A DNA stretch of 62,579 nt, filler included. It is 8 parts of 8 records of this genome, joined end to end, with 100 filler letters (N's around TTAATTAATTAA, not from the genome) between each part and the next. Parts side by side here need not be neighbours in the genome. Positions count along the whole stretch, not along the records: positions 5,355 to 16,745 come from SRR31147125_48291; 7 more parts are not named here. One strand, written 5' to 3'. Positions 5,255-56,088 of this stretch are shown one piece after another. The notes under the pieces were generated by a model. That model made no database searches. It saw only the letters and a program-made list of their open reading frames with translations, and had not been told where the DNA came from. Position 1 is the first letter of the stretch; each line of letters starts with the position of its first letter. Position numbers and translations under genes: made by a program.

Positions 5255-5354
5255 NNNNNNNNNNNNNNNNNNNNNNNNNNNNNNNNNNNNNNNNNNNNTT
5301 AATTAATTAANNNNNNNNNNNNNNNNNNNNNNNNNNNNNNNNNNNNNNNNNNNN
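5255..5354. other. Artificial contig spacer
   Basis: N-run + TTAATTAATTAA (stops in all six frames) + N-run, 100 nt. Confidence 0.99.
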
Positions 5355-5393
5355 ATGCCATTCAAGCGCTCTAGCCAACTGAGCTATACCCCC
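5355..5393 (-). tRNA. tRNA-Ala(GGC), 5' half only, cut by the contig end
   Basis: Minus strand reads GGGGGTA-TA-GCTCAGTTGGCTAGAGC-G-CTTGA-ATGGCAT: acceptor 5' strand, D arm and anticodon loop with GGC. Confidence 0.88.
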
Positions 5394-5474
5394 GTAAATC
5401 ACGGTATGTAACACACTGTCGTAGAAACCTTTAATTCTTTTAATAGTATGTAGTTAACATGATGTAACACGCAT

Positions 5475-5504
5475 ATGCTATCACTAACAATCATAGGCTG
5501 TCAA
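5475..5504 (-). promoter_or_regulatory. Putative sigma70 promoter for the tRNA
   Basis: Minus strand TTGACA (5504-5499), 18 nt, then TAGCAT (5480-5475) preceded by TG. Confidence 0.5.
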
Positions 5505-5660
5505 CAGGGTTGGGTGACAAAGGTGATATACGAGAAACTTGCAGGTGCATGATTGCCCTGTTTTGAAGGAGGAAAAGTCCTTCGATCCTGCTGATGGAAT
5601 ACAGATAACGATAATAGATTTTTTACAATGAGATTTATTTCGCATACAACTAATAATTTC

Positions 5661-5713
5661 TTGACAGGAGAAAAACTTCGGATTACCATAATTGTTAGCA
5701 GAAAACGTTTTCT
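5661..5713 (+). promoter_or_regulatory. Putative sigma70 promoter with a downstream LacI-type palindromic operator
   Basis: TTGACA (5661-5666), 17 nt, TACCAT (5684-5689); perfect palindrome AGAAAACGTTTTCT at 5700-5713. Confidence 0.55.
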
Positions 5714-5882
5714 TCCAACAGTTAACAATTAATAAATAACTATAAATGAGGTTTTGTGAAGAAATGGAGAATCGGAGTAATGTGAAAAACTCTCATCAAA
5801 GATTGCCGGTTTGATAAAAAAATGGTTTTAAAAATAGATTTGTTAATTAGTAAGGTATAGTAATTACACAGTTATATAATAG

Positions 5883-5906
5883 ATGGTATGTGACAAAACA
5901 TACCAT
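5883..5906. promoter_or_regulatory. Inverted repeat, candidate regulator binding site
   Basis: ATGGTATGT-GACAAA-ACATACCAT: perfect 9-bp arms, 6-nt spacer, upstream of the cluster. Confidence 0.45.
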
Positions 5907-6062
5907 ATTAGAGAAAACGCTAGTAAAAAACATTATTTTAATTTTTTCATGTTGTGAGTTTCTTTTAGCTGATATAGAATGAAAAAAGTTTGGTTTAGTA
6001 ATAAGTTATATAAGTTATACAAATTAACTATTAAGTCAAAAAAACAACTTAGGAGGATGAAA

Positions 6063-6662
6063 ATGCGTAAGTATGCTTTTTCATTGTTATTATTTTTAAT
6101 TTTATTAATCCTGCCAATGCAGGTTTTCGCAGAAGTTACCGGGGATCCTATTCAAAAATACTCGGCTCCATTATTGATTACGAATGCGGGTCAAGGACCT
6201 GGCGGGAAAATGGCTAGGTTGTTGATTGGACAAGCCAGAGTTCTTACATTAAATCAGGATTTCTTTTATAAATCTGAACCGTTAGAAAATGATCTGGAAG
6301 ATTTAGAGTATTCCTGTTTATTAGTTGTTATTGGATCAACTGATAAAGGCCTTGGTGCTTCAGGAATAACTATAGACGATGAAATAGAACGTCTTGAAAA
6401 GATGATTGATCATGCTAAGGATATTGATCTACCAATAATTGCATTACTTTTAGAGAAAGATAAAAGATCATCAATCAAAACAAATGCAAATGAACGCTGT
6501 ATTGATTTAGTTTGTCCTCAATCTGATTGGATGATTGTAGTTGAAGGCGGTAATACTGATAAAAGGTTTGATGCAATAAGTGATAAATATGATATTCCGC
6601 TAACACAAATTGGAAGTGCGATGGAATTTATGATGCTGTCAAAAAAGATTTTCACAAAATAA
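6063..6662 (+). CDS. Exported DUF6305-like protein
   Basis: AGGAGG RBS at 6051-6056; signal peptide ending VFA; motifs LITNAGQGP and VIGSTDKGLGASGI..DDEIER recalled as DUF6305. Confidence 0.7.
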   Translation: MRKYAFSLLLFLILLILPMQVFAEVTGDPIQKYSAPLLITNAGQGPGGKMARLLIGQARVLTLNQDFFYKSEPLENDLEDLEYSCLLVVIGSTDKGLGASGITIDDEIERLEKMIDHAKDIDLPIIALLLEKDKRSSIKTNANERCIDLVCPQSDWMIVVEGGNTDKRFDAISDKYDIPLTQIGSAMEFMMLSKKIFTK

Positions 6663-6677
6663 TCTGGAGGATTATTG

Positions 6678-7978
6678 ATGTATTTAATAACAGCTATTCT
6701 ACTTGTTTTAATGATAGCAATATTTGTTTTTAGCAGTATTAAATTTAAATCTCCAGAGATATCAATGGTTTTTGCGGGAGTTGTGATTGCTGTTGTTGGC
6801 TGGGGTTTAATTGATGGGTTAAATAATCCAATAAATTATCTTGTTGAAGGTTTATTTACAAACTTAGATTTAGCAATTCTGTTTATAACAGCTTCATTCT
6901 TTATCAATGTTTATGCTTATTCAGGATCTCTGGATACAGTTACAAGAAAACTGGTAAGTACATTTAGTAATAAATGGATTCTACTGTTTTTCATGGCTAT
7001 ATTCATGATTGTCCCGGGTGCTTTAACTGGAGCCGGAAGTGTTTCTGTTTTTGTTATGGGGGCCTTAGTAGCCACAGTAGTAGGCTATATGGGGCTGTCA
7101 AAAAGAAAAACTGCCGCTTTTGTGTTTGTTTTTGCAATACTGTCGGCTGCTGCTCCGCCAATTAACTTATGGACAATGATAATGACAGCCCAGGCAAATA
7201 TGCCGTATGTAGGATTTGCAAAATTACTAACTATTCCATTAGTAATAACAGGGATTTTCGCAATTATCTATTTAGGCTGGGGATCCAAGCCGGAATCAAC
7301 AGAGAAAATACTTAAAGAACTACCCGAAGCAACTGAAGGAATGAATCTTGTTCGTATTATATTACCTTTGGCAACAATAGCAGCATTAATTCTTTTATCA
7401 CTCTATTTACCTTGGAATATTCCGGTATTGGGGCTGCCTCTTATGTTTGTTCTCTCGACTGTTGTGGCAATTCTTTGTAATCCGAAGAAAACTTCGTTTA
7501 AGCAGTATAGAGAAATCTTAGATGGTACGATGGAACAGGTTTTTCCTCTTGCAGCCACCGTAATTAGTGTAGGGTTGCTGCAAAGTGCAATGACTGCTAC
7601 AGGAGTAAAAGGGTTAATCGGTATAGCCTTTGTTACTTTACCGATTGTATTCATTTATGTTTTTGTACTGATCGTCGGTCCTTTTTCCCAAGGTTGTTTA
7701 AGTTACGGCAGTGCAATAATTATTGGAACACCTTTAATTTTCATGTTCAATACAGCAGGTTTTGATACAACCGTTGTATGTGCAGCTTTGAGTATTATAT
7801 TCCCAATAGGAGATTGTTTACCTCCTTCAAGAATTGTTGGAAGGCTAACTTGTGAAGTCACTGGATACAAAGGGAAATATACGACTTTTCTCAAAAAATC
7901 TTTTTCCCTTGTTTAGTTCTGGGATCTATAGCCTTGTTGATGCTCATTTTCCCAAATGAGTTGTCATTCTTGAAGTAG
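6678..7978 (+). CDS. DctM/TRAP-large-subunit-like (IT superfamily) permease; probable 1-nt error in the A6 run at 7893-7898
   Basis: About 12 hydrophobic segments; PGALTG, AAAPPINL, GDCLPPS hairpin-type motifs; adding one A extends the frame through a last TM helix (IFFPCLVLGSIALLMLIFP) to TAG 7976-7978. Confidence 0.75.
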
Positions 7979-7990
7979 TTGGGGGTATTT

Positions 7991-8167
7991 ATGTTAATTT
8001 TTTTACAATCAGTCATCCATTATTTTTACTTTGTATTGAATGCCATAATTTTATATTACTTTGTTAAACATCTCCTGAAAAGAAAGAAAAAGGTAAATTT
8101 AGTATATGACATTGTATATGCATATACTTGCATTCCTTTTTTATTAAGAATGTTATTTATTAAATAG
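7991..8167 (+). CDS. 58-aa two-TM membrane protein
   Basis: GGGGG RBS before ATG 7991; two hydrophobic stretches separated by KRKKK; fills the gap between permease and deacylase. Confidence 0.65.
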   Translation: MLIFLQSVIHYFYFVLNAIILYYFVKHLLKRKKKVNLVYDIVYAYTCIPFLLRMLFIK

Positions 8168-8212
8168 TATTTAGAGGGTAAAAATGAGTAAAAAAATAAA
8201 ATAATAAAACCT

Positions 8213-9397
8213 ATGATAAGTACTAATAAGATAAAATTCTTAATAATTGGAATAATGCTTATTTTTACGATTATAGCAGGAAGAAATTTTTGGTTGTTAA
8301 GACATTATAAGGAGACTTTTGTCGCTTCAGATGCTTTAACTGAGATTAAATGGTTAAGTGATTATGAACCTTCCTTAAAAGGAAGTTGGAATGATACACC
8401 TGTTTATTTTTTTGATTCAGGTGTAGAAGGTGGAACAGTTTTTTACATGGCTAATGTTCATCCTTATGAACCGGCCAGTGCCTTATCTGCTTATATCCTC
8501 ATGGAAAATATTACTGTTGATAAAGGTAAGGTAATTGTAATACCACAAGGGAATTTCAGTGCTTCAACACAAGGTGTCGTTGGGAATGCCTTTCCTCCTT
8601 ATCATCATGTAGAAACCCCCTGGGGCGTGAAAAAGTATAAAATTGGGGATAGGGGAACTCATCCATTGGATCAATGGCCGGATCCTTTTACGTATGTAAA
8701 CTATCCATCTGGTCAAAGCCTGGCATATCAGGATATCAGGAATATGAACAGGACTTACCCAGGAAGAGCAGATGGTACACAAACAGAACGTGCTGCTTAT
8801 GCAATTATGGAATTAATCAGGCAGGAAAATGTTGATATTTCAATTGATATTCACGAAGCATCAATAATGTATCCTGTTGTGAATACGTATGTTGCTCCTG
8901 ATAAATCCCTGGATATTGCGATGATGGCAGCCATGAATTTAACGGATTCTACTTTCGATATGAAATGTGAAGCTTCACCAGCAAGTTTAAAGGGTCTTTC
9001 TCATAGAGAATGGGGAGATTATAGTGATACGCTACCTTTCTTGATGGAAACTGCTGAGCCGTTTATCGATCGTATTACAGGACCCGTTACTGAAGCTCTT
9101 TGTGTAGATGGTAAAGATCCTTTCCTTGCAACCGCTGCTGAACATGGTCTTACCTTTGTTGATTATGATTATGAGACCGGCTCACCTATGTGGCAACGCT
9201 GTGGACGACATTTGTCTGGTGCTTTGGAAGTTATTTTCTGGGCAAGTGCATTCTTCCCGGAAATGGAAGTAATTTGCTCTTGGCCGACTTATCAGGATCT
9301 GGAAGAAAATGGCACTGGTTATTTTCTTCACGACCCAGAAGATCCTGAAAATATAGATAGGGTACAAAAGGTTTATTATAAACCTTTAAATAATTAA
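8213..9397 (+). CDS. Membrane-anchored succinylglutamate desuccinylase/aspartoacylase (M14-clan Zn carboxypeptidase-like) protein
   Basis: N-terminal TM; HPYE (HxxE Zn ligands), NRTYPG, DIHE. Confidence 0.8.
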   Translation: MISTNKIKFLIIGIMLIFTIIAGRNFWLLRHYKETFVASDALTEIKWLSDYEPSLKGSWNDTPVYFFDSGVEGGTVFYMANVHPYEPASALSAYILMENITVDKGKVIVIPQGNFSASTQGVVGNAFPPYHHVETPWGVKKYKIGDRGTHPLDQWPDPFTYVNYPSGQSLAYQDIRNMNRTYPGRADGTQTERAAYAIMELIRQENVDISIDIHEASIMYPVVNTYVAPDKSLDIAMMAAMNLTDSTFDMKCEASPASLKGLSHREWGDYSDTLPFLMETAEPFIDRITGPVTEALCVDGKDPFLATAAEHGLTFVDYDYETGSPMWQRCGRHLSGALEVIFWASAFFPEMEVICSWPTYQDLEENGTGYFLHDPEDPENIDRVQKVYYKPLNN

Positions 9398-9412
9398 AAG
9401 AGGAAGGGAAGA

Positions 9413-11008
9413 ATGAAAAGAACAGTTTTGATTGCGATGTGTGTGGTTTGTTCACTGATGTTATTCTTTGGACAAAATCTTTTTGCATGTACCATTTTCG
9501 CTGTGGGAAGAGATGCAACGACTGATAACTCGACCATTGTGACGCATAATGATGACTCCAGTGGTGCAGATTTCAGGTTGTGGGTAATTCCTTCTATGGA
9601 GGCAGGTACTAGGGATCTCGTTATTGATTCTCATAACTATGGAGATTATGGTGAGTATCCTGAAGTAAAAGATTATGGTAACGGAACCAAGATTCTTGAA
9701 ATTGATCAGCCGGAAGAGACCAATCAGTACTTACACTCACGTTATTCATTTATGAATGACAAGGGTGTAGCTATGGGTGAATCTACCTTTGGAATTAACA
9801 GAAACACAGAATATGGTGCAAAAGTAAGAGAATTAATCTATGGTGATAATACCGGAATCATTGATTGCTGGAATGCTCAGGATATAGCTCTTGAAAGAGC
9901 ATCAACAGCAAGAGAAGCCGTACGAATTATGGGTGATTTAGTAGAAGAATTCGGATGGAAAGATTCTGGTGAAACTATCAATATTTGTGACGGAGAAGAA
10001 GTATGGATAGCAGAATTCTATGGTAAGGATTTATGGTGTGCCGTTAAGCTTCCGTCAAATGCATTTTTTGTAGCAGCAAACAGGGCTAGAATAGACCATT
10101 TTGACTTTGATGATCCTGAAAACTACATGTGTTCACCGAACTTGAAGAGCTTTGCAGTTGAGAATGATCTGTGGTCGGAAGGCGAAGAATTCAAGCCTAA
10201 TAAGATTTATGCACCGAACACCAGATTTTATTCATCAAGAAGAGAGTGGAGAGGTTATGATTTAGTAGCACCGAGCTTGAATCTTGATCCAAATGCTGAT
10301 GAATTTCCTATGTGGGTAATCCCGGAAGAAAAATTAAGTGTACAGGATATTTTTGAAATGACTGGTGATTACTACCAGGGAACTGAATTCGATCAGAGCA
10401 GAACACCGCAGGCTGGACCGTTTGGCAATGTTGCAGCATATGATTTACCAGAAAGAACAATCAACTTGTTCAGAACATGTTATGTGCAGATTGCGAATGT
10501 AAAATCATGGATGCCTGATGAAACGAAATGTCTTGTATGGTTTGGTTATGGAGCACCTGACTCAACTTACCTGACACCGCTTTGGGCCTCAATGAATAAG
10601 CTTCCGGAGTTATATAACACAGGAAGCCGATATGAAGAATTCAGAACTGATTCAGGCTGGTGGGTAAATTCATTTGTACAGCAGACAGCTACATCTAATT
10701 ACCAGGATGCAATTGTTACAATACATGAAACAAGAGGCGATAGGATGACTCAACAGTATGAAACTGTAACGAAATTGCAGAATACTGCTACACGGTTAGT
10801 GAAATATGGTGATCCTGAGGCAGCAGTTGATATGATCAGTGATTATGCATATTGGACTGCGGTTGATTGGCAGGAAGATTGGCTGGAAATGGGTAATAAA
10901 CTGTATGCCACCTATATGTGGGATAAGAAAGTATTTAGAACTCCGAAATATCCGGAATGGTGGTCAGATATTTTAAGCTCAGCACCGAATAAACCTTTAG
11001 ACAACTAA
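9413..11008 (+). CDS. Exported C69-family dipeptidase (Ntn hydrolase)
   Basis: Signal peptide ending LFA directly before the Cys nucleophile (CTIFAVG); THNDD, MNDKGVAMGEST, LERASTAREA, AANRARI. Confidence 0.85.
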   Translation: MKRTVLIAMCVVCSLMLFFGQNLFACTIFAVGRDATTDNSTIVTHNDDSSGADFRLWVIPSMEAGTRDLVIDSHNYGDYGEYPEVKDYGNGTKILEIDQPEETNQYLHSRYSFMNDKGVAMGESTFGINRNTEYGAKVRELIYGDNTGIIDCWNAQDIALERASTAREAVRIMGDLVEEFGWKDSGETINICDGEEVWIAEFYGKDLWCAVKLPSNAFFVAANRARIDHFDFDDPENYMCSPNLKSFAVENDLWSEGEEFKPNKIYAPNTRFYSSRREWRGYDLVAPSLNLDPNADEFPMWVIPEEKLSVQDIFEMTGDYYQGTEFDQSRTPQAGPFGNVAAYDLPERTINLFRTCYVQIANVKSWMPDETKCLVWFGYGAPDSTYLTPLWASMNKLPELYNTGSRYEEFRTDSGWWVNSFVQQTATSNYQDAIVTIHETRGDRMTQQYETVTKLQNTATRLVKYGDPEAAVDMISDYAYWTAVDWQEDWLEMGNKLYATYMWDKKVFRTPKYPEWWSDILSSAPNKPLDN

Positions 11009-11028
11009 AGGAAAAAGGTATATTATTT

Positions 11029-11059
11029 AAAAACAGGTGTGAAAGCACCTGTTTTTTTT
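11029..11059 (+). terminator. Intrinsic terminator between the C69 gene and pgsB
   Basis: AAAAACAGGTG-TGAAAG-CACCTG followed by T8. Confidence 0.8.
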
Positions 11060-11065
11060 ATATGT

Positions 11066-12181
11066 ATGGAATTAATAATTATTATAACAATTCCTCTGAT
11101 TCTGCTAGGGCTGGAAAGTTTTTTTAATTATAGAAATTTAAAAAAAATACCGATCCGCATTCTAGTAAATGGCACTAGAGGAAAAACAACAGTTACAAAA
11201 CTTCTCACAAAAACATTTCAATCTTATGGAATATCAACTATAGCAAAAACCACAGGTTCACAGGCCCTTATTATAGAAAAAGATGGTAAAGTATTACCAT
11301 TTATAAGAAAGAGAGGTTTTAGACTTACTGAGTTAATACCTTTTATTAGGCATTGTGCTCATGAAAATGTAGATTGTATTATTGTTGAATGTATGGCTTT
11401 AAGATTGGAAAATCAGAAAACACTATCAAAAAGTATTTTAAAACCAACGCATGTTCTCATTACAAATTCTTATGTGGATCATATAGATGAAATTGGTAAT
11501 TCAATTGATAAAACCACATATACATTAAGTCAAAGTGTTATAAAAAATAGTAAACTTTTTGTAAACCAAGATTTTAATCTGAAATACATCTCAAAGGAAA
11601 TACAGGTTACTAAGAGTATGAAACTTGAGTCCTTAAAAAATTTTTCTGATAATATTAAATCTTATCCTGAGAATATTTATTTAGCTTCTTCCGTAGTAGA
11701 AAGCTTCAATATCCCTATGGAACTTCTGGAAAAAGCATCACATTCTATGAGTTTAGATATCGGTATGTATCAAAAATTTGATTGTAAAAATGGTGCGGTG
11801 TTTATTCCATCTTTTTCGATTAATGATGTTACAAGTTTAAAAAATACAATAGAAAAAATGAATATTGATACGTATAGTTCAATTTATTTTATCTTTAATA
11901 ATCGAAGAGATAGGGAATATAGAGTTTCTCAATTTACAAAATTCTTTAAAGATTTAGAATTTCCAATGAATATAATTGTTATTGGTGAAAATATAAAAAT
12001 GATATCAAGATATTTCAGAAAAAATACCCAACAACATGTTCGAGCTGTTAATGAAATTAATATTTTGAATCAAATGATGGATAATAGTAATAATGAATGT
12101 ATATATATTGGGGTTGGGAATATTAAGGGACAAGGTGTGAAATTAATAAATAATTTTATTGATGAGCTTCATGCAAAATGA
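11066..12181 (+). CDS. pgsB: Poly-gamma-glutamate synthase PgsB/CapB (Mur-ligase-like)
   Basis: N-terminal TM; IPIRILVNGTRGKTT P-loop, AKTTGS, ECMAL, TNSYVDH, NNRRDREYR, GVGNIKG; adjacent to pgsC. ATG 11066 preferred because GTG 11039 lies inside the terminator. Confidence 0.88.
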   Translation: MELIIIITIPLILLGLESFFNYRNLKKIPIRILVNGTRGKTTVTKLLTKTFQSYGISTIAKTTGSQALIIEKDGKVLPFIRKRGFRLTELIPFIRHCAHENVDCIIVECMALRLENQKTLSKSILKPTHVLITNSYVDHIDEIGNSIDKTTYTLSQSVIKNSKLFVNQDFNLKYISKEIQVTKSMKLESLKNFSDNIKSYPENIYLASSVVESFNIPMELLEKASHSMSLDIGMYQKFDCKNGAVFIPSFSINDVTSLKNTIEKMNIDTYSSIYFIFNNRRDREYRVSQFTKFFKDLEFPMNIIVIGENIKMISRYFRKNTQQHVRAVNEINILNQMMDNSNNECIYIGVGNIKGQGVKLINNFIDELHAK

Positions 12182-12196
12182 CAAGATTAAGAGCCA

Positions 12197-12661
12197 ATGG
12201 AATATATTGGCTCGATGATAAGGGATAATATGTTACAAACTGCTATTGGCTTAAGTATAATTTTTGGATTTATGTGTAATGAATTTCTCTATATTCTATC
12301 TGGAGGTTTAGTATCTGCGGGATACCTTGCTTTTTTCATAGAGCAGCCTTTTCGCATAATTTCAACATCATTATTATCTATCTTAACTTATTTAATAGTA
12401 AGAATTCTGCAAAAGTTTTTCATAATATACGGAAGACGACGTTTTATGATAACGGTTCTTATTAGTTTACTTGCTTCATATTTTATTAATCGTACATTTT
12501 TTTATTTTTCCGCTGTTGATCAGGATATGAGAATAATAGGATTTATAATTCCAGGATTAATTGCCAATGATATGTTGAAACAAGGTGTCTTTAAAACACT
12601 AATAATTGTCTATCTATTAGCAATTCTTATTAGATTGATAATAATGATAGGTATTATTTAA
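12197..12661 (+). CDS. pgsC: Poly-gamma-glutamate biosynthesis protein PgsC/CapC
   Basis: GGLVSAGYLA, IIYGRRRF, IGFIIPGLIANDMLKQG. Confidence 0.92.
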   Translation: MEYIGSMIRDNMLQTAIGLSIIFGFMCNEFLYILSGGLVSAGYLAFFIEQPFRIISTSLLSILTYLIVRILQKFFIIYGRRRFMITVLISLLASYFINRTFFYFSAVDQDMRIIGFIIPGLIANDMLKQGVFKTLIIVYLLAILIRLIIMIGII

Positions 12662-13760
12662 TGTATAAAAATGAAAAAATAGATTTTATCTATTTAATTA
12701 TTGCTTTTGTAATTCTCCTTATTGGATCTTTCTTGGTTTTTAAAACAAAAATAAGAAACGATAATGAGTATAGTTTATTACAATTGCAAGCATCACAAAT
12801 CATGGAAGATTCTGAAAATTTTATTAAATATTATATGGAAGATAATGATTTTGAATTTGATGTAGAGGACATAAATAATACGGGGTTAATTGGTCCTGAA
12901 TGGAGTGAATTAACTTCAACTCCAGGACATATCGATGCAAAAGAACTTCGTTGAACCCTAATTTTGCAGCACTGATGATTCATTATTTTAATCAAGCTGG
13001 ATTAAAAAAAGGAGATACTATTGCTATTGGAAGCAGTGGATCTTTTCCAGGATTGTTAATAGCTACACTTTGTGCCTGTAAAGTAATGAATATTAATGCA
13101 AATATAATCATCTCTTTTGGATCTTCTATGTATGGCGCTACTCGTCCGTCTTTAAATATTGCAACAATTATTAATTTATTGAAAAACGAGGGTTTTGTTG
13201 ATTTTAATCTTTTAGCGGTGTCTCCGGGTGGTAAAAACGATTATGGGGTTGGTATTCTCGAAGATATCTTATATAGCGGAACAAGAGAAACCGTATTGCA
13301 GCTTTGTAAAGAAGAAAACGTTGAGATAATTGATGTTAATAACATAGAACAAAGTATACAAAAGCGACTTTCTTTATTTGGAGATAATCCATCGATGTTT
13401 GTAAATATAGGAGGAGCCAGTGCCAATATGGGAACAAGCGCGTATACTCTTGATTTTCCACAAGGTCTAGTTTTAAATCCACCCAGGATTCCAATCTACA
13501 AAACAAGAGGATTAACATATGAGTATGCCGCAAGAGGAATCCCTGTCTTAAATTTATTAAACGTTAGAAAATTAGCAACTGAAAATGGATTACCGTATGA
13601 TCCTGTCCCTCTTCCTAAAGCCGGCGAAGGTGATATTTATTTTACATTTATGTATAATAAGATTCTCATATTAGCAACAATCCTATTAAGTCTTTTAACT
13701 GTTATTATGGGATATTGTATAAAAAGATGGCGTAGAAAAAGTTTGAAGTTTGAAATTTGA
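12661..13760 (+). CDS. pgsW: Poly-gamma-glutamate system protein (PgsW-like); split by a probable 1-nt error in the A run at 12939-12942
   Basis: DINNTGLIGPEWSELTSTPG; adding one A restores AKRTSLNPNFAA; SSGSFPG, GSSMYGA, FVNIGG; N- and C-terminal TMs; ATG overlaps the pgsC stop. Confidence 0.85.
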
Positions 13761-13963
13761 AATTAGATTGAGATAGGTTATGAGTATCCCCATACTATGG
13801 GTTAACGAAAACCATGTAGGCGGGATATAAGATCAGCCCTGTTATTATGACCAGAATCCAGAATATGTATGTTGGATGTTAAAGTTAATCAGTTTTCACT
13901 GTGAAAGAATGCGATTCACCCGCTGTCTGGATAAAAAAAACCATTTCCTGTATAACCTTACTC

Positions 13964-14728
13964 ATGGGTGATATAAACATTTTACTGCTGCTGGGATTCA
14001 TGCTCTGGGGAATATTCGTTGGAACTATCGTTGGTTTTACCGCGGTCGGAACGGGATTGGTTGGAGTAACCGGTCTCATGATAATCTTTGGAGTGGAGCC
14101 CCTGATTGCCGTGGGATCGATGGGAGTCTCCGGGTTCTTCCTCATGTTGTCAGGAACAATACAGCATAGGCGTAATGGAAATATCCACATTCCGGTGGCA
14201 ATGATGACAGCCGTGACGGCTATCCCCATGTCATACATTACGGCAATGTTTGCCGAAACAATCAACGAAATCATCCCGCTCACCTATATAATCGGCGGAA
14301 TAATTATACTATCTGTTATTCTGCTCTTTTATCGCTATTTTATTCGGAAAAGCGTGAATAAAGATTTCGAGTTCGTGGCCTGGAAAAAAGTAGCCGCACC
14401 GCTAATGGGAATCGTACTTGGTGGATTGATGGGTATTACCAGCATCAGCGGATCAATACTGGTGGTCATGTTCCTGCTGGTGCTGCATATGCCAGCGGCT
14501 CTGGCTGTTGGAACAACAAGTGCGGTTAGCGCTGTTTCTCTGTTTGTGGCGGGGATTGCGCATATACAAGGCGGTAATGTGGATCTAGGTGTGGTACTGG
14601 GACTTATTCCCGGTGTTTTGCTGGGAGCCGCGGTTGGCGCACGCTATTCAAACCGTGTACCGGTCAATGTCCTGAGAATCGGAATATTAGTAATCCTGCT
14701 GGCTGCGGGAGTCATGGTGTTTCTTTAG
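13964..14728 (+). CDS. TauE/SafE (sulfite exporter) family permease
   Basis: Two repeats of Gly-rich TM hairpins (GTIVGFTAVGTG; GGLMGITSISG), AVGTTS, GAAVGA. Confidence 0.85.
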   Translation: MGDINILLLLGFMLWGIFVGTIVGFTAVGTGLVGVTGLMIIFGVEPLIAVGSMGVSGFFLMLSGTIQHRRNGNIHIPVAMMTAVTAIPMSYITAMFAETINEIIPLTYIIGGIIILSVILLFYRYFIRKSVNKDFEFVAWKKVAAPLMGIVLGGLMGITSISGSILVVMFLLVLHMPAALAVGTTSAVSAVSLFVAGIAHIQGGNVDLGVVLGLIPGVLLGAAVGARYSNRVPVNVLRIGILVILLAAGVMVFL

Positions 14729-14752
14729 AATCCATTATGTAATATCCATTAT

Positions 14753-15871
14753 CTAGAGGATCTTTCCTGCAATATCTTCAGGGGAAGGCGGACACCCCGG
14801 CACAAACCGGGTAAATTGAGCTGTGCAGCGGCCAATCCCAACAGCATCCTTCCATTCCCCCGAACAGCCTTTTTTGCGGAAAGCTCTTCCAATGGCAAAA
14901 TGCCTGTTATCAGCAGTCAATTCAGGATATTCCCGTAAAGCGGCAATCAGGGCCGCGTAGCATGATGAGCAGGCATCCTGTTCATCAATCAGATTTGATA
15001 GAGTTTCCAACATCGGATCACGTTCAGCACCGACAGAATCATCGGAAGGAGTATTAATTTCCAGAATTTGATTCATCTCCCCAGACCAGATTTCACCAAC
15101 CCCCAGTTCAGCACAACGACCGATATAACCGATATCAGAGTAGTCGAGTTGAATCTGTGTACAGGCATAGCTGTCCAGCAGGACCGGATCATGGGAGCAA
15201 AGGATTCTATTGAGGGACGAAGGTGATCCACCCTCCTCAAAGGTAGGATCCCCGCATATACCGTCCATTACAATAAAATCCTGTTTGATTACGGTATTCA
15301 GCCGTGCGATGGGTTCATGCAGCCCTTTGGAATGATATCGTCTTTTTTCGGAATCAGGGATACATCCCTTCATATTTTTCAGGGATCCGGTGTAATAGGT
15401 CTGACAATGTCCTTTCAGGACGGGAACATTAATGAAAAAATCCAGATCCTGCATAATATCACACACGGTAAGCGAATAGCCGTCAGCGGAAACTTTATGA
15501 ACGGAATCTTTTTGTGTATCCATCAATCGGACATTATATCTGTTAGCAAGCTCCTCATAACCGCAGACCCGAAACGCTGCCGTAGTCCGGTCGCCCACCC
15601 AGGCCCCTTCGAGTATAATGATGTTGTCATACCCTAATGACTGCAGATACTGAATAATTCCTTCAACAATTTCCGGATGTGTCGTAGCCCCCGAACTTGC
15701 CGGCTTGGAAACGACCAGATTGGGTTTCAGGCCGATCAAGCTGCCGCGGTCTGCTGGCAGACGGTCCTTGAGTGATACGGTTTCCAGCAGGTTGATGGTC
15801 ATCTTCTGCAGGGATTGTGTATCATTGGTGCGATAGAGAACGGCTATAGGACGATCAGGTATGGTATTCAT
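14753..15871 (-). CDS. DUF362 domain protein with a C-terminal Cys-rich (probable Fe-S) region
   Basis: LKPNLV, ATTHP, VPVLKGH, LKNMKG; C-terminal CSSC, GIGRC and GCPP. Confidence 0.85.
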   Translation of the reverse strand: MNTIPDRPIAVLYRTNDTQSLQKMTINLLETVSLKDRLPADRGSLIGLKPNLVVSKPASSGATTHPEIVEGIIQYLQSLGYDNIIILEGAWVGDRTTAAFRVCGYEELANRYNVRLMDTQKDSVHKVSADGYSLTVCDIMQDLDFFINVPVLKGHCQTYYTGSLKNMKGCIPDSEKRRYHSKGLHEPIARLNTVIKQDFIVMDGICGDPTFEEGGSPSSLNRILCSHDPVLLDSYACTQIQLDYSDIGYIGRCAELGVGEIWSGEMNQILEINTPSDDSVGAERDPMLETLSNLIDEQDACSSCYAALIAALREYPELTADNRHFAIGRAFRKKGCSGEWKDAVGIGRCTAQFTRFVPGCPPSPEDIAGKIL

Positions 15872-15884
15872 AGTTCAACTCCGA

Positions 15885-16745
15885 TCAGCCGTGTAAAAAA
15901 TCTTGATAATAACGATAACTCGCTTTGGGGATACGTTCCAACGTTTCGTAGTCGCAGTAAACAATCCCAAAGCGGCGTGAATATCCGAATGACCATTCGA
16001 AATTGTCGATAAAACTCCAGACAAAGTATCCTTTAAGGGGGATTCCGTTCTGGACAGCTTTCTCACATATCCCAAGGTGATCTTTGAGATAGGCAACCCG
16101 ATCGGGGTCTGGGACAGTTCTGTTACCACTGCCGGTTATCTCAATTGCATCATGCCAGGCTGAACCGTTTTCGGTAATGTATATCGGGAGACCAGGACAC
16201 TCCCCGGCCAGCCAGGCCAGCAGGCGATAGAGGCCATCAGGGGTGATATCCCAGCCCATAGCGGTTTTCGGCAGATCAGTTTGATAGATTCTGTATTCTT
16301 CATCAGCGTTCTTTTCGTATTCAACTACCGTTTCATTATAAAAATTGATGCCCAGAAAATCTATTTTCCCGGAAATCAATTCCATATCACCAGGTTCTAT
16401 CGGCAGCTCAATATCAGGATGCGCGTCCAGATGTCTTTTTGGATACCCTTTTCCCACAACCGGATCAAGATACATCCGCGTTTGGAAATCGGTTGCCCGG
16501 TCTGCGGCCAGAATATCCTGCGCTGAATCAGTCAGTGGTTTGTAGAGAGATAAGTTCAGGGTGGTTCCGATCGTTCCGGGATAACCTCCGTTCCGGAATT
16601 TCTTCAGGGCCAGTCCATGGGCAAGGTTCAGGATATGGATTGATGAATACATGCGCTGCTTATCTTTAATTCCCGGTGCGTGAATACCAATACCGTAACC
16701 GAGAAACGATGAACAAAATGGTTCATTCAGGGTTATCCAGTTTTT
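15885..16745 (-). CDS. GH1 beta-glucosidase, 5'-truncated at the contig end
   Basis: Frame is open upstream of the listed ORF (NWITLNEP, acid/base); YITENG nucleophile; DNFEW..GY..RFG. Confidence 0.93.
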   Translation of the reverse strand, partial: KNWITLNEPFCSSFLGYGIGIHAPGIKDKQRMYSSIHILNLAHGLALKKFRNGGYPGTIGTTLNLSLYKPLTDSAQDILAADRATDFQTRMYLDPVVGKGYPKRHLDAHPDIELPIEPGDMELISGKIDFLGINFYNETVVEYEKNADEEYRIYQTDLPKTAMGWDITPDGLYRLLAWLAGECPGLPIYITENGSAWHDAIEITGSGNRTVPDPDRVAYLKDHLGICEKAVQNGIPLKGYFVWSFIDNFEWSFGYSRRFGIVYCDYETLERIPKASYRYYQDFLHG

Positions 16746-16845
16746 NNNNNNNNNNNNNNNNNNNNNNNNNNNNNNNNNNNNNNNNNNNNTTAATTAATTA
16801 ANNNNNNNNNNNNNNNNNNNNNNNNNNNNNNNNNNNNNNNNNNNN
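16746..16845. other. Artificial contig spacer
   Basis: N-run + TTAATTAATTAA + N-run. Confidence 0.99.
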
Positions 16846-22210: not shown

Positions 22211-22310
22211 NNNNNNNNNNNNNNNNNNNNNNNNNNNNNNNNNNNNNNNNNNNNTTAATTAATTAANNNNNNNNNNNNNNNNNNNNNNNNNNNNNNNNNN
22301 NNNNNNNNNN
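22211..22310. other. Artificial contig spacer
   Basis: N-run + TTAATTAATTAA + N-run. Confidence 0.99.
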
Positions 22311-30950: not shown

Positions 30951-31050
30951 NNNNNNNNNNNNNNNNNNNNNNNNNNNNNNNNNNNNNNNNNNNNTTAATT
31001 AATTAANNNNNNNNNNNNNNNNNNNNNNNNNNNNNNNNNNNNNNNNNNNN
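30951..31050. other. Artificial contig spacer
   Basis: N-run + TTAATTAATTAA + N-run. Confidence 0.99.
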
Positions 31051-38237: not shown

Positions 38238-38337
38238 NNNNNNNNNNNNNNNNNNNNNNNNNNNNNNNNNNNNNNNNNNNNTTAATTAATTAANNNNNNN
38301 NNNNNNNNNNNNNNNNNNNNNNNNNNNNNNNNNNNNN
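38238..38337. other. Artificial contig spacer
   Basis: N-run + TTAATTAATTAA + N-run. Confidence 0.99.
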
Positions 38338-47231: not shown

Positions 47232-47331
47232 NNNNNNNNNNNNNNNNNNNNNNNNNNNNNNNNNNNNNNNNNNNNTTAATTAATTAANNNNNNNNNNNNN
47301 NNNNNNNNNNNNNNNNNNNNNNNNNNNNNNN
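47232..47331. other. Artificial contig spacer
   Basis: N-run + TTAATTAATTAA + N-run. Confidence 0.99.
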
Positions 47332-53736: not shown

Positions 53737-55862
53737 TTAGATGAAACCTTTTTCAGCCTGAGCTTGTATCGCAGTAATAATAACGGTGTTAATAATGTCA
53801 GTCACCTTACACCCACGACTTAGGTCATTTACCGGTTTTTTGAGACCCTGAAGGATAGGACCGATTGCAACGGCTCCTGTCGAACGCTGAACAGCCTTAT
53901 AGGTATTATTTCCTGTATTTAAGTCCGGAAAGATGAAGACGGTTGCTTTTCCTGCAACGTCGCTGTTAGGGGCTTTAGACTTCGCAACTTCCGGATCAAC
54001 TGCAGCGTCGTATTGTATAGGGCCTTGAACTTTCATATTGGGGCATCTCTCTTTAACGATTTTGGCGGCATCTTTTACTCTCTCCACCTCTTCTCCCTGA
54101 CCTGATTCGCCGGTTGAATAAGATAAAAGAGCGACCCTTGGCTCTATATCAAAGGCGGCAGCCGTTTTCCCAGAAGCCATTGCAATTTCAGCTAACTGTT
54201 CCGAGTTCGGCCTCGGGTTTACAGCACAGTCGCCATATACCAATACCCTATCTGCCAAGCACATGAAAAAGACACTTGAAACGATAGAAAGTCCGGGCTT
54301 GGCCTTTATAATTTGAAAGGCCGGGCGTATGGTATCTTGAGTTGTATGGACGGCACCGGAAACCATTCCATCAGCATCACCCATATGAACCATCATCGTT
54401 CCAAAATATGTCTCATCCAACATGGTTTCATGGGCACTTTGAAGGGTTCCCCCTGGTTGCCCCCTTGTGTTTTCTTAATTCATAGTAACACTCAACATAT
54501 TTTTCCAAGTTAGGATGCTTGGCAGGCTCAATTATGCCAATTTCTCCTTCCATAAGTTCCAGCCCTAATGAACTGATGTTACTTAATATTTGATCTTTGT
54601 TTCCTAGTATGCTAATTTCTACGACTCCTCTTCGAACAAGAATTTCTGCTGCTTTTAAAATTCTTTCATCATTACCCTCAGGTAAAACGATGTGCTGAAC
54701 ATTGAGAGTGGCCTTTTCTATTAGCGACAGCTCAAACATTTTTGGAGTCATTCTGGAGGACTTGGCTATTTCAACCGCAGATAAAATTTCATCTTTATCA
54801 ACAAATTGAGAAAAAAGACCTATGCTTGCGGCTATCTTGCTTTGGTCATTCACACAAATATTTGGGCTTATTTTACTTACTTCCAAGGCTGTATCGAAAG
54901 TGTTTTCTTTGACACTCAAAATTGGCAAAGGCATATTGGGCAGGCCGTTTAATAGTCTGTTTACCCCATCATCCGGAACCTCGCCTATGGTAAGAACGAT
55001 ACCTGCAACACTTGGGATAGATGTTGATAATAATGAGAGGATGCAACCCAGAAGCATATCGATCCTATCACCGGGCGTAATAACTAAAAAGCCTTCTTTT
55101 GTAATAAAATTGAATAGTTTAGGTAACTGAGCCGATGCAATAACATAATCATACACTTTATTCGTTAATCTGTTTTTACCCCAAAGAACGTCAGCATTTA
55201 ACAGTTCAACGATATCATTCATGGTCGGGTTGGAAATTTCACGCCACTCCGGTATTACATAAAAGAGTAAATTATTTTTACCATCAAATCTCTTTTGAAA
55301 TTCATCTGCCGTTTCCTTCACCGTATCAGGGTTCGTTCTATTAGAAACAGCACCAAATACTTCACAACCATTTTCTTTGTATGCGTCAATGGCTAACTGC
55401 ACGCTACTTACAATAGTATCAGTACTTTTATTAAGAGCATTGGCTATAATAATTACAGGACAACCTAATTGATAGCTTATGTGGATATTTATGTCAGAGT
55501 CAAATATATTTGTGTCATGTGTATAATCCATCCCCTCCACCAGGATTAAATCACATTTTTTTCCAACGCTTTATATTTTTTTAATATTTCTTCATAAAAC
55601 GTTTCCTGACGGTTAGACGTCAACAGCTCTTTTGCCTCTTCAAATGTATAAGCATACATTTCTTCATAGTTTATTTCTAAATTGAATGTTGACTTAATAA
55701 GGTTAATATTGTTATCAATTTGCTCTTTTTTTCTACGTTAATTATTGGACGAAAAAAACCTACTCTGTCTGTCCTTGTTGAAAAAATGTGCATTAGACCC
55801 AAAGAGACAAGCGTTTTCAGGCTTTCACTCTCGATGGAGGTAATATACAGACTTTGTGCCAT
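53737..55862 (-). CDS. pta: Long-type phosphate acetyltransferase (AAA_26 + DRTGG + PTA domains); several probable sequencing frameshifts
   Basis: [67 protein letters not shown]. Confidence 0.9.
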
Positions 55863-55988: not shown

Positions 55989-56088
55989 NNNNNNNNNNNN
56001 NNNNNNNNNNNNNNNNNNNNNNNNNNNNNNNNTTAATTAATTAANNNNNNNNNNNNNNNNNNNNNNNNNNNNNNNNNNNNNNNNNNNN
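55989..56088. other. Artificial contig spacer
   Basis: N-run + TTAATTAATTAA + N-run. Confidence 0.99.

What the first reader, a model, noticed from the sequence alone, without database searches (positions are those of the whole stretch)
6063..13760. Candidate poly-gamma-glutamate make-and-recycle system: pgsBCW coupled to two exported peptidases and an atypical transporter
Seen: eight co-directional, closely packed genes (DUF6305-like, DctM-like permease, 58-aa protein, M14-clan deacylase, C69 Ntn peptidase, pgsB, pgsC, pgsW). There is no capA/pgsA, capE, capD/ggt or pgdS in the cluster. Established: Bacillus capBCADE/pgsBCA-pgdS loci pair the synthase with CapA and a gamma-glutamyl hydrolase/transpeptidase; PgsW-like proteins co-occur with pgsBC and, as far as I know, are uncharacterised. 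Inference: this is a non-Bacillus architecture in which PgsW takes the accessory role, the peptidases trim or release the polymer, and the transporter re-imports glutamate or gamma-Glu oligomers. I do not know of a functional description of it, but I could not search.
Basis: partly seen in the sequence, partly recalled or inferred. Interest (0 to 1): 0.78.

Follow-up and report, generated by a model that had tools for sequence, protein, structure and literature searches.

The report
Polyglutamate synthase linked to recycling cassette
A gene set for making the slime polymer poly-gamma-glutamate sits next to a conserved, undescribed cassette of exported peptidases and a membrane transporter that most likely breaks gamma-glutamyl material down and takes it up; the pairing recurs in anaerobic bacteria of several phyla.

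Summary
The eight genes are there as described. The cluster lies on an 11.4-kb contig inside a window made of linker-joined contigs. Two of its genes, the permease and pgsW, each lack one base in an A-run.

Of 80 genome loci found with the M14 enzyme, 45 carry pgsB, pgsC and pgsW beside the five-gene cassette. Of 44 informative metagenome loci found with PgsW, 40 carry the cassette. A divergent second version of the whole arrangement exists.

In related cassettes gamma-glutamyltransferase (the CapD/Ggt family) takes the place of C69. Three of these also sit beside pgsBCW.

The cassette also occurs alone and in up to seven loci per genome. A conserved terminator-like hairpin separates it from pgsB.

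Best reading: a PgsA-less polyglutamate synthase paired with a separate gamma-glutamyl hydrolysis and uptake module. All of this rests on gene context; nothing is tested biochemically. My searches of the held paper library found no description of this arrangement.

The parts
6063..6662 (+). DUF6305 protein. It has a signal peptide followed by a ~175-aa alpha/beta domain. It is a candidate extracytoplasmic substrate-binding or adaptor subunit.
   Evidence: PF19823 at 135 bits. A hydrophobic N-terminus is seen. The AlphaFold model has pLDDT 88.5 and a three-layer alpha/beta fold. Structure searches gave only generic matches. It is present beside the M14 gene in all loci where the contig allows.
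6675..7978 (+). Permease of about 434 aa with 12 TM segments, of the ion-transporter superfamily (DctM-like). In this window one base is missing from the A-run at 7893-7898.
   Evidence: DctM scores 21 bits, under the cut-off. Of 24 homologues, 14 hit DctM and 10 hit Na_H_antiporter. Twelve hydrophobic segments are seen in the L001 orthologue. The C-terminal 26 or so residues are read in another frame and match the homologues.
7991..8167 (+). 58-aa membrane protein, a possible small transporter subunit.
   Evidence: ORF. Relatives of 56-64 aa were detected at this position in the loci scanned (tblastn hits in 77 of the 80 genome loci), at 41-88% identity.
8213..9397 (+). Membrane-anchored AstE/AspA-like zinc deacylase of the M14 clan. 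It is a candidate exo-hydrolase that releases C-terminal glutamate from gamma-glutamyl chains.
   Evidence: PF24827 at 27.9 bits, hit by all 12 of 12 homologues. H83, E86, H214, E279 and the R176/N177/N179/R180 block are invariant. The nearest solved relatives are DoeB (6twm) and AstE-like (3na6). An N-terminal TM segment is seen.
9413..11008 (+). Secreted C69 (Ntn, cysteine) peptidase. It is a candidate gamma-glutamyl hydrolase, the counterpart of GGT in sister cassettes.
   Evidence: PF03577 at 240 bits. NCBIfam C69 dipeptidase scores 211 bits, under its 250 cut-off. Cys26 follows the signal peptide directly. PDB dipeptidase 5iau matches at E 1.8e-31. Related loci carry 1-4 tandem copies.
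11029..11056 (+). Terminator-like hairpin with a U tail, between the C69 stop codon and pgsB.
   Evidence: 12-bp stem. Folding energy is -19.2 kcal/mol with z -5.3. The same hairpin core lies at the same place in L001 (-18.3 kcal/mol, z -5.7).
11066..12181 (+). PgsB-like amide ligase, the synthase catalytic subunit. An alternative GTG start is at 11039.
   Evidence: TIGR04012 at 214 bits against a 222.7 cut-off, E 2.7e-63, full length. Mur_ligase_M at 36 bits.
12197..12661 (+). PgsC, the membrane subunit of the synthase.
   Evidence: TIGR04011 at 106.6 bits (cut-off 96.45). PF14102 at 107.6 bits.
12661..13760 (+). PgsW, the 'poly-gamma-glutamate system protein'. It has two TM helices flanking an alpha/beta domain of about 300 aa inferred to face outward. 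In this window one base is missing from the A-run at 12939-12942.
   Evidence: TIGR04332 scores 59.9 bits (model positions 2-87) and 228.7 bits (model 90-307) on the two ORFs. The intact orthologue in L001 differs by one extra A. Full-length relatives are 360-380 aa. The model of the L001 orthologue has pLDDT 94.7. No structural relative stands above background.

Best explanation
The locus is two functional modules placed side by side.

Module 1 is pgsB-pgsC-pgsW. It is a PgsA-less member of the poly-gamma-glutamate synthase family. PgsB ligates glutamate on the cytoplasmic face, PgsC is its membrane partner, and PgsW is the third subunit, with its domain inferred to face outward, handling the emerging chain.

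Module 2 is DUF6305, the permease, the 58-aa protein, the M14 enzyme and C69. It works outside the cytoplasmic membrane on gamma-glutamyl material. The M14 deacylase removes C-terminal glutamate, because a gamma-Glu-Glu bond is chemically an N-acyl-glutamate like the AstE substrate. The C69 enzyme does the job that GGT/CapD-type enzymes do in sister cassettes. The permease, perhaps helped by DUF6305 and the 58-aa protein, takes up the glutamate or short gamma-glutamyl peptides that are released.

Together the two modules let the cell build an external glutamate polymer and later trim it or reclaim it.

Shown here: the gene content, the conservation of the pairing, and the swap between GGT and C69. 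Inferred: the chemistry of every step, the direction of transport and the identity of the polymer.
For: 1.

2. Pairing in loci found with the M14 enzyme. Of 80 genome loci, 45 carry PgsB, PgsC and PgsW. Three more carry part of the set at a contig end. Eleven carry a PgsW-like gene only. Eight have at least 7.9 kb of downstream room and none of the three. Thirteen are too short to tell. By record titles the loci come from Spirochaetales, Clostridia/Bacillota, Synergistales and Kosmotogaceae/Petrotogaceae.

3. Pairing in loci found with PgsW. Of 80 metagenome loci, 25 have the full cassette, 15 have part of it, 36 are uninformative, and 4 are informative without it.

4. Genomes whose cassette lacks adjacent pgsBC. 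All 5 of 5 examined have a pgsBCW cassette elsewhere. In two of them it lies beside a second, divergent cassette, with M14 at 44% and the permease at 36-41% identity.

5. The GGT variant. Of 26 further DUF6305 loci in one bacterial family, 21 carry GGT, 3 carry C69, none carries both, and all 26 carry an M14-like gene. Three are GGT-DUF6305-(permease)-M14-PgsB-PgsC-PgsW. In those three TIGR00066 scores 472-485 bits, above its cut-off. None of the 80 C69-type loci has GGT.

6. No CapA or GGT elsewhere. The closest relative's genome (G001) has no CapA-like hit and no GGT hit. G004 and G005 also have no GGT.

7. Location. DUF6305 and C69 have signal peptides and M14 has an N-terminal anchor. The PgsW domain lies between two TM helices.

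8. The M14 family keeps an intact zinc and catalytic residue set.
Against: - There is no biochemical evidence for any step.
- PgsB scores just under the NCBIfam equivalog cut-off.
- The cassette often stands alone, occurs at up to 7 loci in one genome, and is separated from pgsB by a conserved terminator-like hairpin. It may therefore serve general gamma-glutamyl scavenging rather than recycling of the cell's own polymer.
- DUF6305 occurs with M14 and GGT but without any permease in 8 of 26 loci. This weakens the idea that it is a transporter subunit.
- In Synergistales a soluble PgsW-like protein sits in the cassette without PgsB or PgsC, so PgsW may not be purely a synthase subunit.
- Francisella capBCA was not linked to capsule production by the studies reviewed in PMC4688374. 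Its third gene is annotated 'poly-gamma-glutamate system protein' in a table of PMC5362203. The product of PgsW-type cassettes is therefore uncertain.
- The window's copy has two frameshifts, and its GC content does not match its flank.
Confidence: 0.55

Rival explanations
1. The cassette is a general scavenging system for foreign gamma-glutamyl compounds, such as other microbes' PGA, glutathione, folyl-polyglutamates or peptidoglycan gamma-D-Glu peptides. It sits near pgsBCW only because both deal with glutamate. The cell does not recycle its own polymer.
For: The cassette stands alone, followed by unrelated genes, in 8 loci with ample flank. One genome has seven DUF6305 loci, with eight DUF6305 genes. 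In one bacterial family 38 of 69 genomes carry it, in 1-8 copies. Only 3 of 26 sampled loci there adjoin pgsBCW. Some loci have their own regulators, either GntR or a two-component system. A conserved hairpin separates the modules.
Against: For the orthologue group of the window, adjacency is the rule: 45 of 67 informative genome loci and 40 of 44 informative PgsW-seeded loci. The adjacency has also arisen or been kept in divergent versions.
Confidence: 0.2
2. The exported enzymes are maturation factors, not catabolic ones. Like CapD or PgdS they size, release or anchor the polymer. The permease supplies glutamate to the synthase or exports material.
For: GGT-family CapD is the anchoring transpeptidase of the Bacillus anthracis capsule (recalled knowledge). 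GGT replaces C69 in sister cassettes. Both are acyl-enzyme Ntn hydrolases able in principle to transfer (recalled knowledge).
Against: The cassette, with its permease, is frequent in loci and contexts without any adjacent synthase. The 1-4 tandem C69 copies and extra M14 or M20 genes look like a degradative battery.
Confidence: 0.12
3. The PgsB/PgsC/PgsW cassette here does not make poly-gamma-glutamate. It makes another amide-linked product, which the cassette processes.
For: PgsB is below the equivalog cut-off and is only 28-40% identical among cluster orthologues, while M14 is 54-72% identical. The reviewed Francisella capBCA literature found no role in capsule production (passages of PMC4688374). 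PgsW has no structural relative above background.
Against: PgsC passes its equivalog cut-off. PgsB aligns end to end with the PGA synthase model. The association with GGT, a gamma-glutamyl-specific enzyme family, points to gamma-glutamyl chemistry.
Confidence: 0.1
4. The window's copy is not a working system. It is either a decaying, horizontally acquired island or part of a mis-binned or chimeric contig.
For: There are two single-base deletions in A-runs in 7.7 kb. GC is 27-40% against 47-48% on the same contig and about 50% on most other contigs. None of the 165 related loci scanned (L001-L165) shares the TauE/DUF362 flank, apart from one weak 23% DUF362-like hit in L023.
Against: Both defects are homopolymer length errors of the kind sequencing makes. 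Other genes in the window are also split or truncated, for example pta at 53737-55540. All other cluster genes are intact and 69-88% identical to L001.
Confidence: 0.2

Closest known systems
Bacillus subtilis pgsBCAE with the degrading enzymes PgdS and Ggt (recalled knowledge; reviews seen only as search listings)
   Same: It has a PgsB/PgsC synthase core, a degradative enzyme encoded next to the synthase, and late reuse of the polymer as a glutamate source.
   Different: The window has no PgsA or PgsE; PgsW is the third gene. Its hydrolases belong to other families: AstE-like M14 and C69, instead of NlpC/P60 PgdS and GGT. A dedicated permease with DUF6305 and a 58-aa protein is part of the set. 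The carriers are anaerobes of other phyla.
Bacillus anthracis capBCADE (recalled knowledge)
   Same: A synthase plus an exported Ntn-type enzyme (CapD, GGT family) in one locus. Sister cassettes of the window's type carry a true GGT.
   Different: The window has C69 instead of GGT, no CapA or CapE, and an added M14 enzyme and transporter. An anchoring role is not indicated.
pgsB-pgsC-pgsW three-gene cassette (TIGR04012, TIGR04011, TIGR04332), including by annotation the Francisella capBCA locus
   Same: The same three families in the same order. PMC5362203, table 3, names FTT_0807 capA a 'poly-gamma-glutamate system protein' (passage).
   Different: Membership of the Francisella protein was not tested here. 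I know of no report of that locus having the DUF6305/M14/C69 cassette; this was not tested. Its product is unknown.
TRAP transporters (DctP/DctQ/DctM)
   Same: A three-part layout: an exported soluble protein, a large 12-TM permease distantly like DctM, and a small membrane protein.
   Different: The permease is below the DctM cut-off. DUF6305 is a single ~175-aa alpha/beta domain, not a DctP-type two-lobed binding protein. The small protein has about 58 aa, not four TM helices. DUF6305 also occurs without the permease.
Phage PghP, a zinc PGA hydrolase structurally related to carboxypeptidase A (PMC4497714, passage read)
   Same: It is a precedent that a carboxypeptidase-A-like zinc enzyme cleaves gamma-glutamyl bonds of PGA.
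   Different: The window's enzyme matches AstE/AspA, not the PghP family. No match to a PGA-hydrolase Pfam family was seen. It is membrane-anchored and about 390 aa.

Membership tests
PgsBCA/CapBCA poly-gamma-glutamate synthetase system | PgsB/CapB amide ligase (TIGR04012) | tested here: inconclusive
   214 bits against an equivalog cut-off of 222.7. E 2.7e-63, covering model positions 3-379 of 380.
PgsBCA/CapBCA poly-gamma-glutamate synthetase system | PgsC/CapC membrane subunit (TIGR04011, PF14102) | tested here: met
   106.6 bits against 96.45, and 107.6 bits against 27.
PgsBCA/CapBCA poly-gamma-glutamate synthetase system | PgsA/CapA (PF09587) in the locus | tested here: not met
   No cluster ORF hits PF09587. 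The genome of the closest relative (G001) has no hit and G003 has none over the cut-off. PF09587 also matches 7 of 14 control genomes, so hits elsewhere are not specific.
PgsBCA/CapBCA poly-gamma-glutamate synthetase system | CapD/Ggt (PF01019) in the locus | tested here: not met
   Absent from the cluster and from genomes G001, G004 and G005. Present in sister cassettes.
PgsBCA/CapBCA poly-gamma-glutamate synthetase system | Product is gamma-linked polyglutamate | not testable with these tools
   Needs expression and polymer analysis.
pgsB-pgsC-pgsW cassette | TIGR04332 protein directly after pgsC | tested here: met
   59.9 and 228.7 bits on two abutting ORFs (cut-off 100), split by a one-base deletion.
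TRAP transporter | DctM large subunit over the Pfam cut-off | tested here: not met
   21 bits against 23.8. Of 24 homologues, 14 hit DctM at E up to 1, the best at 8.4e-7.
TRAP transporter | DctP-type binding protein and DctQ subunit | tested here: not met
   DUF6305 and the 58-aa protein match neither family. The DUF6305 model is a single alpha/beta domain.
AstE/AspA deacylases (M14 clan) | Catalytic-domain match and conserved zinc and catalytic residues | tested here: met
   PF24827 at 27.9 bits against 25, hit by 12 of 12 homologues. HxxE (H83, E86), H214 and E279 are invariant. Assigning those residues to zinc binding and catalysis is recalled from the family, not tested here.
Peptidase C69 | Family match with the nucleophile Cys at the mature N-terminus | tested here: met
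   PF03577 at 240 bits, starting at residue 25. Cys26 follows the signal peptide. The NCBIfam C69 dipeptidase equivalog scores 211 bits against 250, so it is not an equivalog of the known dipeptidases.

The most novel reading that the evidence does not exclude
DUF6305, the AstE-like M14 enzyme and an Ntn hydrolase (C69 or GGT), usually with a new ion-transporter-superfamily permease and a 58-aa subunit, form a previously unrecognised, widespread and often multi-copy class of extracytoplasmic gamma-glutamyl utilisation systems. In this class hydrolysis is built into uptake. PgsW would then be an outward-facing polymer-handling enzyme that can work without PgsBC, as in the soluble Synergistales form, rather than a mere stand-in for PgsA.
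Probability: 0.3. Interest if true: 0.78.

Novelty: new variant of a known kind. Interest (0 to 1): 0.68.

Why it matters
Poly-gamma-glutamate is known almost only from Bacillus and a few other organisms, where the synthase needs PgsA. This locus defines a conserved PgsA-free architecture. By record titles its carriers are anaerobes from several phyla, with some records from rumen, gut and faecal samples.

It also names concrete candidates for three things the field lacks:
- new PGA-degrading enzymes (an AstE-like zinc enzyme and C69 peptidases);
- a dedicated uptake route for the breakdown products;
- a role for the uncharacterised PgsW and DUF6305 families.

It may also bear on PgsW-type capBCA loci, whose product is unknown. 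Every element can be tested with ordinary expression and enzyme assays.

Tried and rejected
- **Whole genome of the window:** none is held. CapA or CapD elsewhere in this same genome could not be checked, so relatives' genomes were used instead.
- **Reads over the frameshifts:** one public run holds 0.10 of the sampled words, as contigs only. The listed pieces are 151-192-nt fragments and none of them covers 7893-7898 or 12939-12942, so the test is inconclusive. No RNA holder was listed.
- **Complex prediction, permease with mature DUF6305:** no verdict (score 0.00). This is no evidence either way.
- **DUF6305 against PgsW, profile comparison:** no relationship (probability 0.5%).
- **Structure searches:** for PgsW, Foldseek found nothing at E 0.001 or better and VIA gave a best Z of 8.2. 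For DUF6305, Foldseek TM scores were 0.26-0.42 and VIA gave a best Z of 8.8. All matches were generic Rossmann-like folds at background level.
- **PDB sequence searches:** no relative for PgsW or DUF6305.
- **ESM Atlas:** returned only other PgsW clusters.
- **Rfam over 5300-14100:** no match.
- **tRNA scan over 5300-16000:** none.
- **First PgsW alignment (30 sequences):** too diverse for the locus scan, so a 14-sequence alignment was used.
- **Upstream palindrome at 5883-5906:** not found in any of the 191 loci.
- **Papers:** PMC3128946 and PMC3985703 are not held. No supplements were opened.
- **Literature searches with no relevant hit:**
  - 'pgsW': none of the 20 listed of 33 papers concerns this gene.
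  - 'DUF6305': 0 papers.
  - 'TIGR04332': 0 papers.
  - 'poly-gamma-glutam' with 'C69' and 'dipeptidase': 0 papers.
  - 'polyglutamate', 'capsule', 'Treponema', 'capB': nothing on this locus type among the 10 listed of 44.
- **Earlier findings of this scan:** several pgsBC(W) loci with other partners, none with this cassette.

Full report
**What is in the window**

The window is not one continuous stretch. Seven N...TTAATTAATTAA...N linkers join separate contigs. The finding lies on a contig spanning 5355-16745.

On it, eight + strand genes follow each other with gaps of 12-57 nt:
- DUF6305, 6063-6662: PF19823, 135 bits.
- A 12-TM permease, 6675-7978: DctM at only 21 bits.
- A 58-aa membrane protein, 7991-8167.
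- An AstE/AspA-like M14 deacylase, 8213-9397.
- A C69 peptidase, 9413-11008.
- PgsB: TIGR04012 at 214 bits, against a cut-off of 222.7.
- PgsC: TIGR04011 at 106.6 bits.
I did not verify that gene symbol.

No CapA, GGT or PGA-hydrolase family is matched in the cluster.

**Defects and composition of this copy**

pgsW is split into two ORFs. The nearest relative, L001, is collinear over 6038-13699 at 76-80% nucleotide identity. It reads GCAAAAAGAACT where the window reads GCAAAAGAACT. One A is therefore missing from the run at 12939-12942.

The permease has the same kind of defect. One A is missing at 7893-7898. The last 26 or so residues, which match all homologues, lie in another frame ending at 7978.

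Other genes in the window are also split or truncated, for example pta at 53737-55540. I therefore think these are sequencing errors. The single public run that shares words with the stretch did not cover the sites in its listed pieces, so this stays open.

The cluster is 27-40% GC. TauE and DUF362 on the same contig are 47-48% GC. L001's whole neighbourhood is low in GC. The window's copy is thus either a recent import or part of a mis-joined contig.

**Is the eight-gene set a unit?**

Starting from the M14 enzyme, 80 loci from different genomes were fetched. By record titles these are Spirochaetales, Treponemataceae, Sphaerochaetaceae, Clostridia, Synergistales, Kosmotogaceae and Petrotogaceae.
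- Wherever the contig allows, DUF6305, the permease and the small protein precede M14, and C69 follows it.
- 45 loci also carry PgsB, PgsC and PgsW.
- 3 carry part of that set at a contig end.
- 11 carry only a PgsW-like gene, 9 of them from Synergistales.
- 8 have at least 7.9 kb of downstream room and none of the three.
- 13 are too short to judge.

Starting from PgsW, 80 metagenome loci were fetched. Of these, 25 have the whole cassette and 15 have part of it. Another 36 are uninformative, and 4 are informative without it. Several of these loci are near-duplicates of one gut organism, so they are not all independent.

**Independent recurrences**

Five genomes whose cassette lacks adjacent pgsBC were searched for PgsB. 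All five have a pgsB-pgsC-pgsW cassette elsewhere. In a Petrotogaceae MAG and in Fretibacterium fastidiosum that cassette sits beside a second, much more divergent copy of the peptidase and permease cassette. There M14 is 44% identical, the permease 36-41%, and DUF6305 26% where detected. The pairing has thus been kept, or rebuilt, across deep divergence.

**The GGT variant**

One Treponemataceae MAG (G002) has eight DUF6305 genes at seven loci. In its family, 38 of 69 genomes carry DUF6305, in 1-8 copies.

- All 26 have an M14-like gene.
- 21 have gamma-glutamyltransferase.
- 3 have C69, none has both, and 2 have neither.
- 18 have the permease.

Three of the loci read GGT-DUF6305-(permease)-M14-PgsB-PgsC-PgsW. 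NCBIfam confirms them: TIGR00066 at 472-485 bits against a cut-off of 358; TIGR04012 at 224, 216 and 251 bits; TIGR04332 at 253-288 bits. None of the 80 C69-type loci has GGT.

GGT is the family of CapD and of the Bacillus subtilis Ggt that degrades PGA (recalled knowledge). Its mutually exclusive exchange with C69 in the same cassette is the strongest context evidence that the cassette works on gamma-glutamyl bonds. It also suggests that C69 is the functional counterpart of GGT.

**Where the proteins act**

- DUF6305 and C69 have signal peptides. In C69 the Cys that the family uses as N-terminal nucleophile (recalled) directly follows the signal peptide, at Cys26.
- M14 has an N-terminal anchor.
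- PgsW has TM helices at both ends and a strongly basic C-terminal tail. By the positive-inside rule its ~300-aa domain should face outward. This is my inference.

These points rest.

The M14 family keeps HxxE, a further His, a Glu and an R-N-x-N-R block invariant. Its nearest solved relatives are N-acyl-amino-acid deacylases, DoeB and AstE-like. A gamma-Glu-Glu bond is an N-acyl-glutamate closely resembling N-succinyl-glutamate. Release of C-terminal glutamate from a gamma-glutamyl chain is therefore a chemically natural activity. This too is inference.

**Unknown parts**

- PgsW folds with high confidence (pLDDT 94.7) but has no structural or sequence relative above background.
- DUF6305 is a single three-layer alpha/beta domain (pLDDT 88.5) with only generic matches. 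It is unrelated to PgsW.
- DUF6305 has many invariant basic residues: K49, R52, K95 and R135, with R145 nearly invariant. These would suit an anionic ligand, but this is speculation.
- In 8 of 26 loci DUF6305 occurs with M14 and GGT but with no permease. It therefore follows the hydrolases more closely than the transporter.
- In Synergistales a soluble PgsW-like protein, with a signal peptide and no C-terminal anchor, belongs to the cassette without PgsB or PgsC. This hints that the PgsW domain acts on the polymer or peptide itself.

**Modularity**

The cassette occurs alone, followed by unrelated genes, with 1-4 C69 copies. Extra M14 or M20 peptidases and GntR-type or two-component regulators sometimes accompany it.

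Between the C69 stop codon and pgsB lies a 12-bp hairpin with a U tail, at 11029-11056. Its core is conserved in L001. The folding energies are -19.2 and -18.3 kcal/mol, with z -5.3 and -5.7. The eight genes are therefore best seen as two linked transcription units, or as one attenuated operon, and not as one indivisible operon.

**Comparison with what is known**

The locus works like the Bacillus pairing of synthase and degrading enzyme (pgsBCAE with pgdS and ggt, or capBCADE). It is not a member of that architecture: PgsA/CapA and GGT are absent from the cluster. In the closest relative's genome, whose completeness is unknown, neither is found anywhere.

It is a member of the pgsB-pgsC-pgsW cassette type. 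The only functional literature I could connect to that type is indirect. A table in PMC5362203 calls Francisella capA a 'poly-gamma-glutamate system protein' (passage). A review, PMC4688374 (passages), reports that capBCA mutants are attenuated but that no role in capsule production was found. I did not test whether that protein belongs to TIGR04332.

The transporter resembles a TRAP system in layout only and fails the family tests.

**Novelty and verdict**

Searches of the held paper library found nothing on DUF6305 or TIGR04332, on pgsW in this sense, or on C69 together with PGA. Subscription journals are mostly not covered, and no supplements were opened.

Earlier notes of this scan describe pgsBC(W) loci with other partners such as outer-membrane barrels, and none with this cassette.

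I rate this a new variant of a known kind of system. It has well-supported gene linkage and a coherent, testable mechanism that is entirely inferred. The window's own copy is of uncertain integrity.

Noticed in passing
window 5255-5354, 16746-16845, 22211-22310, 30951-31050, 38238-38337, 47232-47331, 55989-56088: The window is a pseudomolecule. Contigs are joined by N runs around the six-frame stop linker TTAATTAATTAA. GC content differs between contigs, from 37-41% to 50-54%. Gene content includes LPS genes, a TonB receptor and YebG. The record may be a mixed or island-rich draft.
   Followed up: partly
window 5356-5395: By eye, the first 40 bases of the cluster contig look like the reverse complement of the 5' part of a tRNA gene cut by the contig end. 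ARAGORN reports no tRNA there.
   Followed up: no
window 5883-5906: A 9-bp inverted repeat, ATGGTATGT-N6-ACATACCAT, lies about 160 nt upstream of the DUF6305 start and could be an operator. It was not found in any of the 191 related loci.
   Followed up: partly
window 53737-55540 (- strand): Phosphotransacetylase is split into two abutting ORFs, covering PTA_PTB model positions 3-93 and 101-319. Several other genes match only part of their family model (LpxK, CobN, a Kdo kinase-like ORF, a fucosidase). This fits an error-prone assembly.
   Followed up: no
L063 5904-6809, L076 12894-13856, L078 about 13000-13902: Synergistales cassettes carry a soluble PgsW-like protein of about 300-320 aa. It has a signal peptide, no C-terminal anchor and no PgsB or PgsC beside it. 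Fretibacterium also has a separate, divergent pgsBCW plus cassette locus (L084).
   Followed up: partly
L166-L171 (genome G002): One Treponemataceae MAG has eight DUF6305 genes at seven loci, two of them in tandem. Identical rve-type integrase genes lie next to two of the loci (L166, L170), which suggests mobility of the cassettes.
   Followed up: partly
L188 5437-16009: A compact block of PgsB-PgsC-PgsW with three M14-like genes, two GGT genes and DUF6305, but no permease.
   Followed up: partly
L001 3887-7094: The closest relative has two tandem C69 genes where the window has one. Its cluster is followed by ilvN, ilvC and leuA-like genes. The window's preceding, separate contig ends in an ilv operon.
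   Followed up: no
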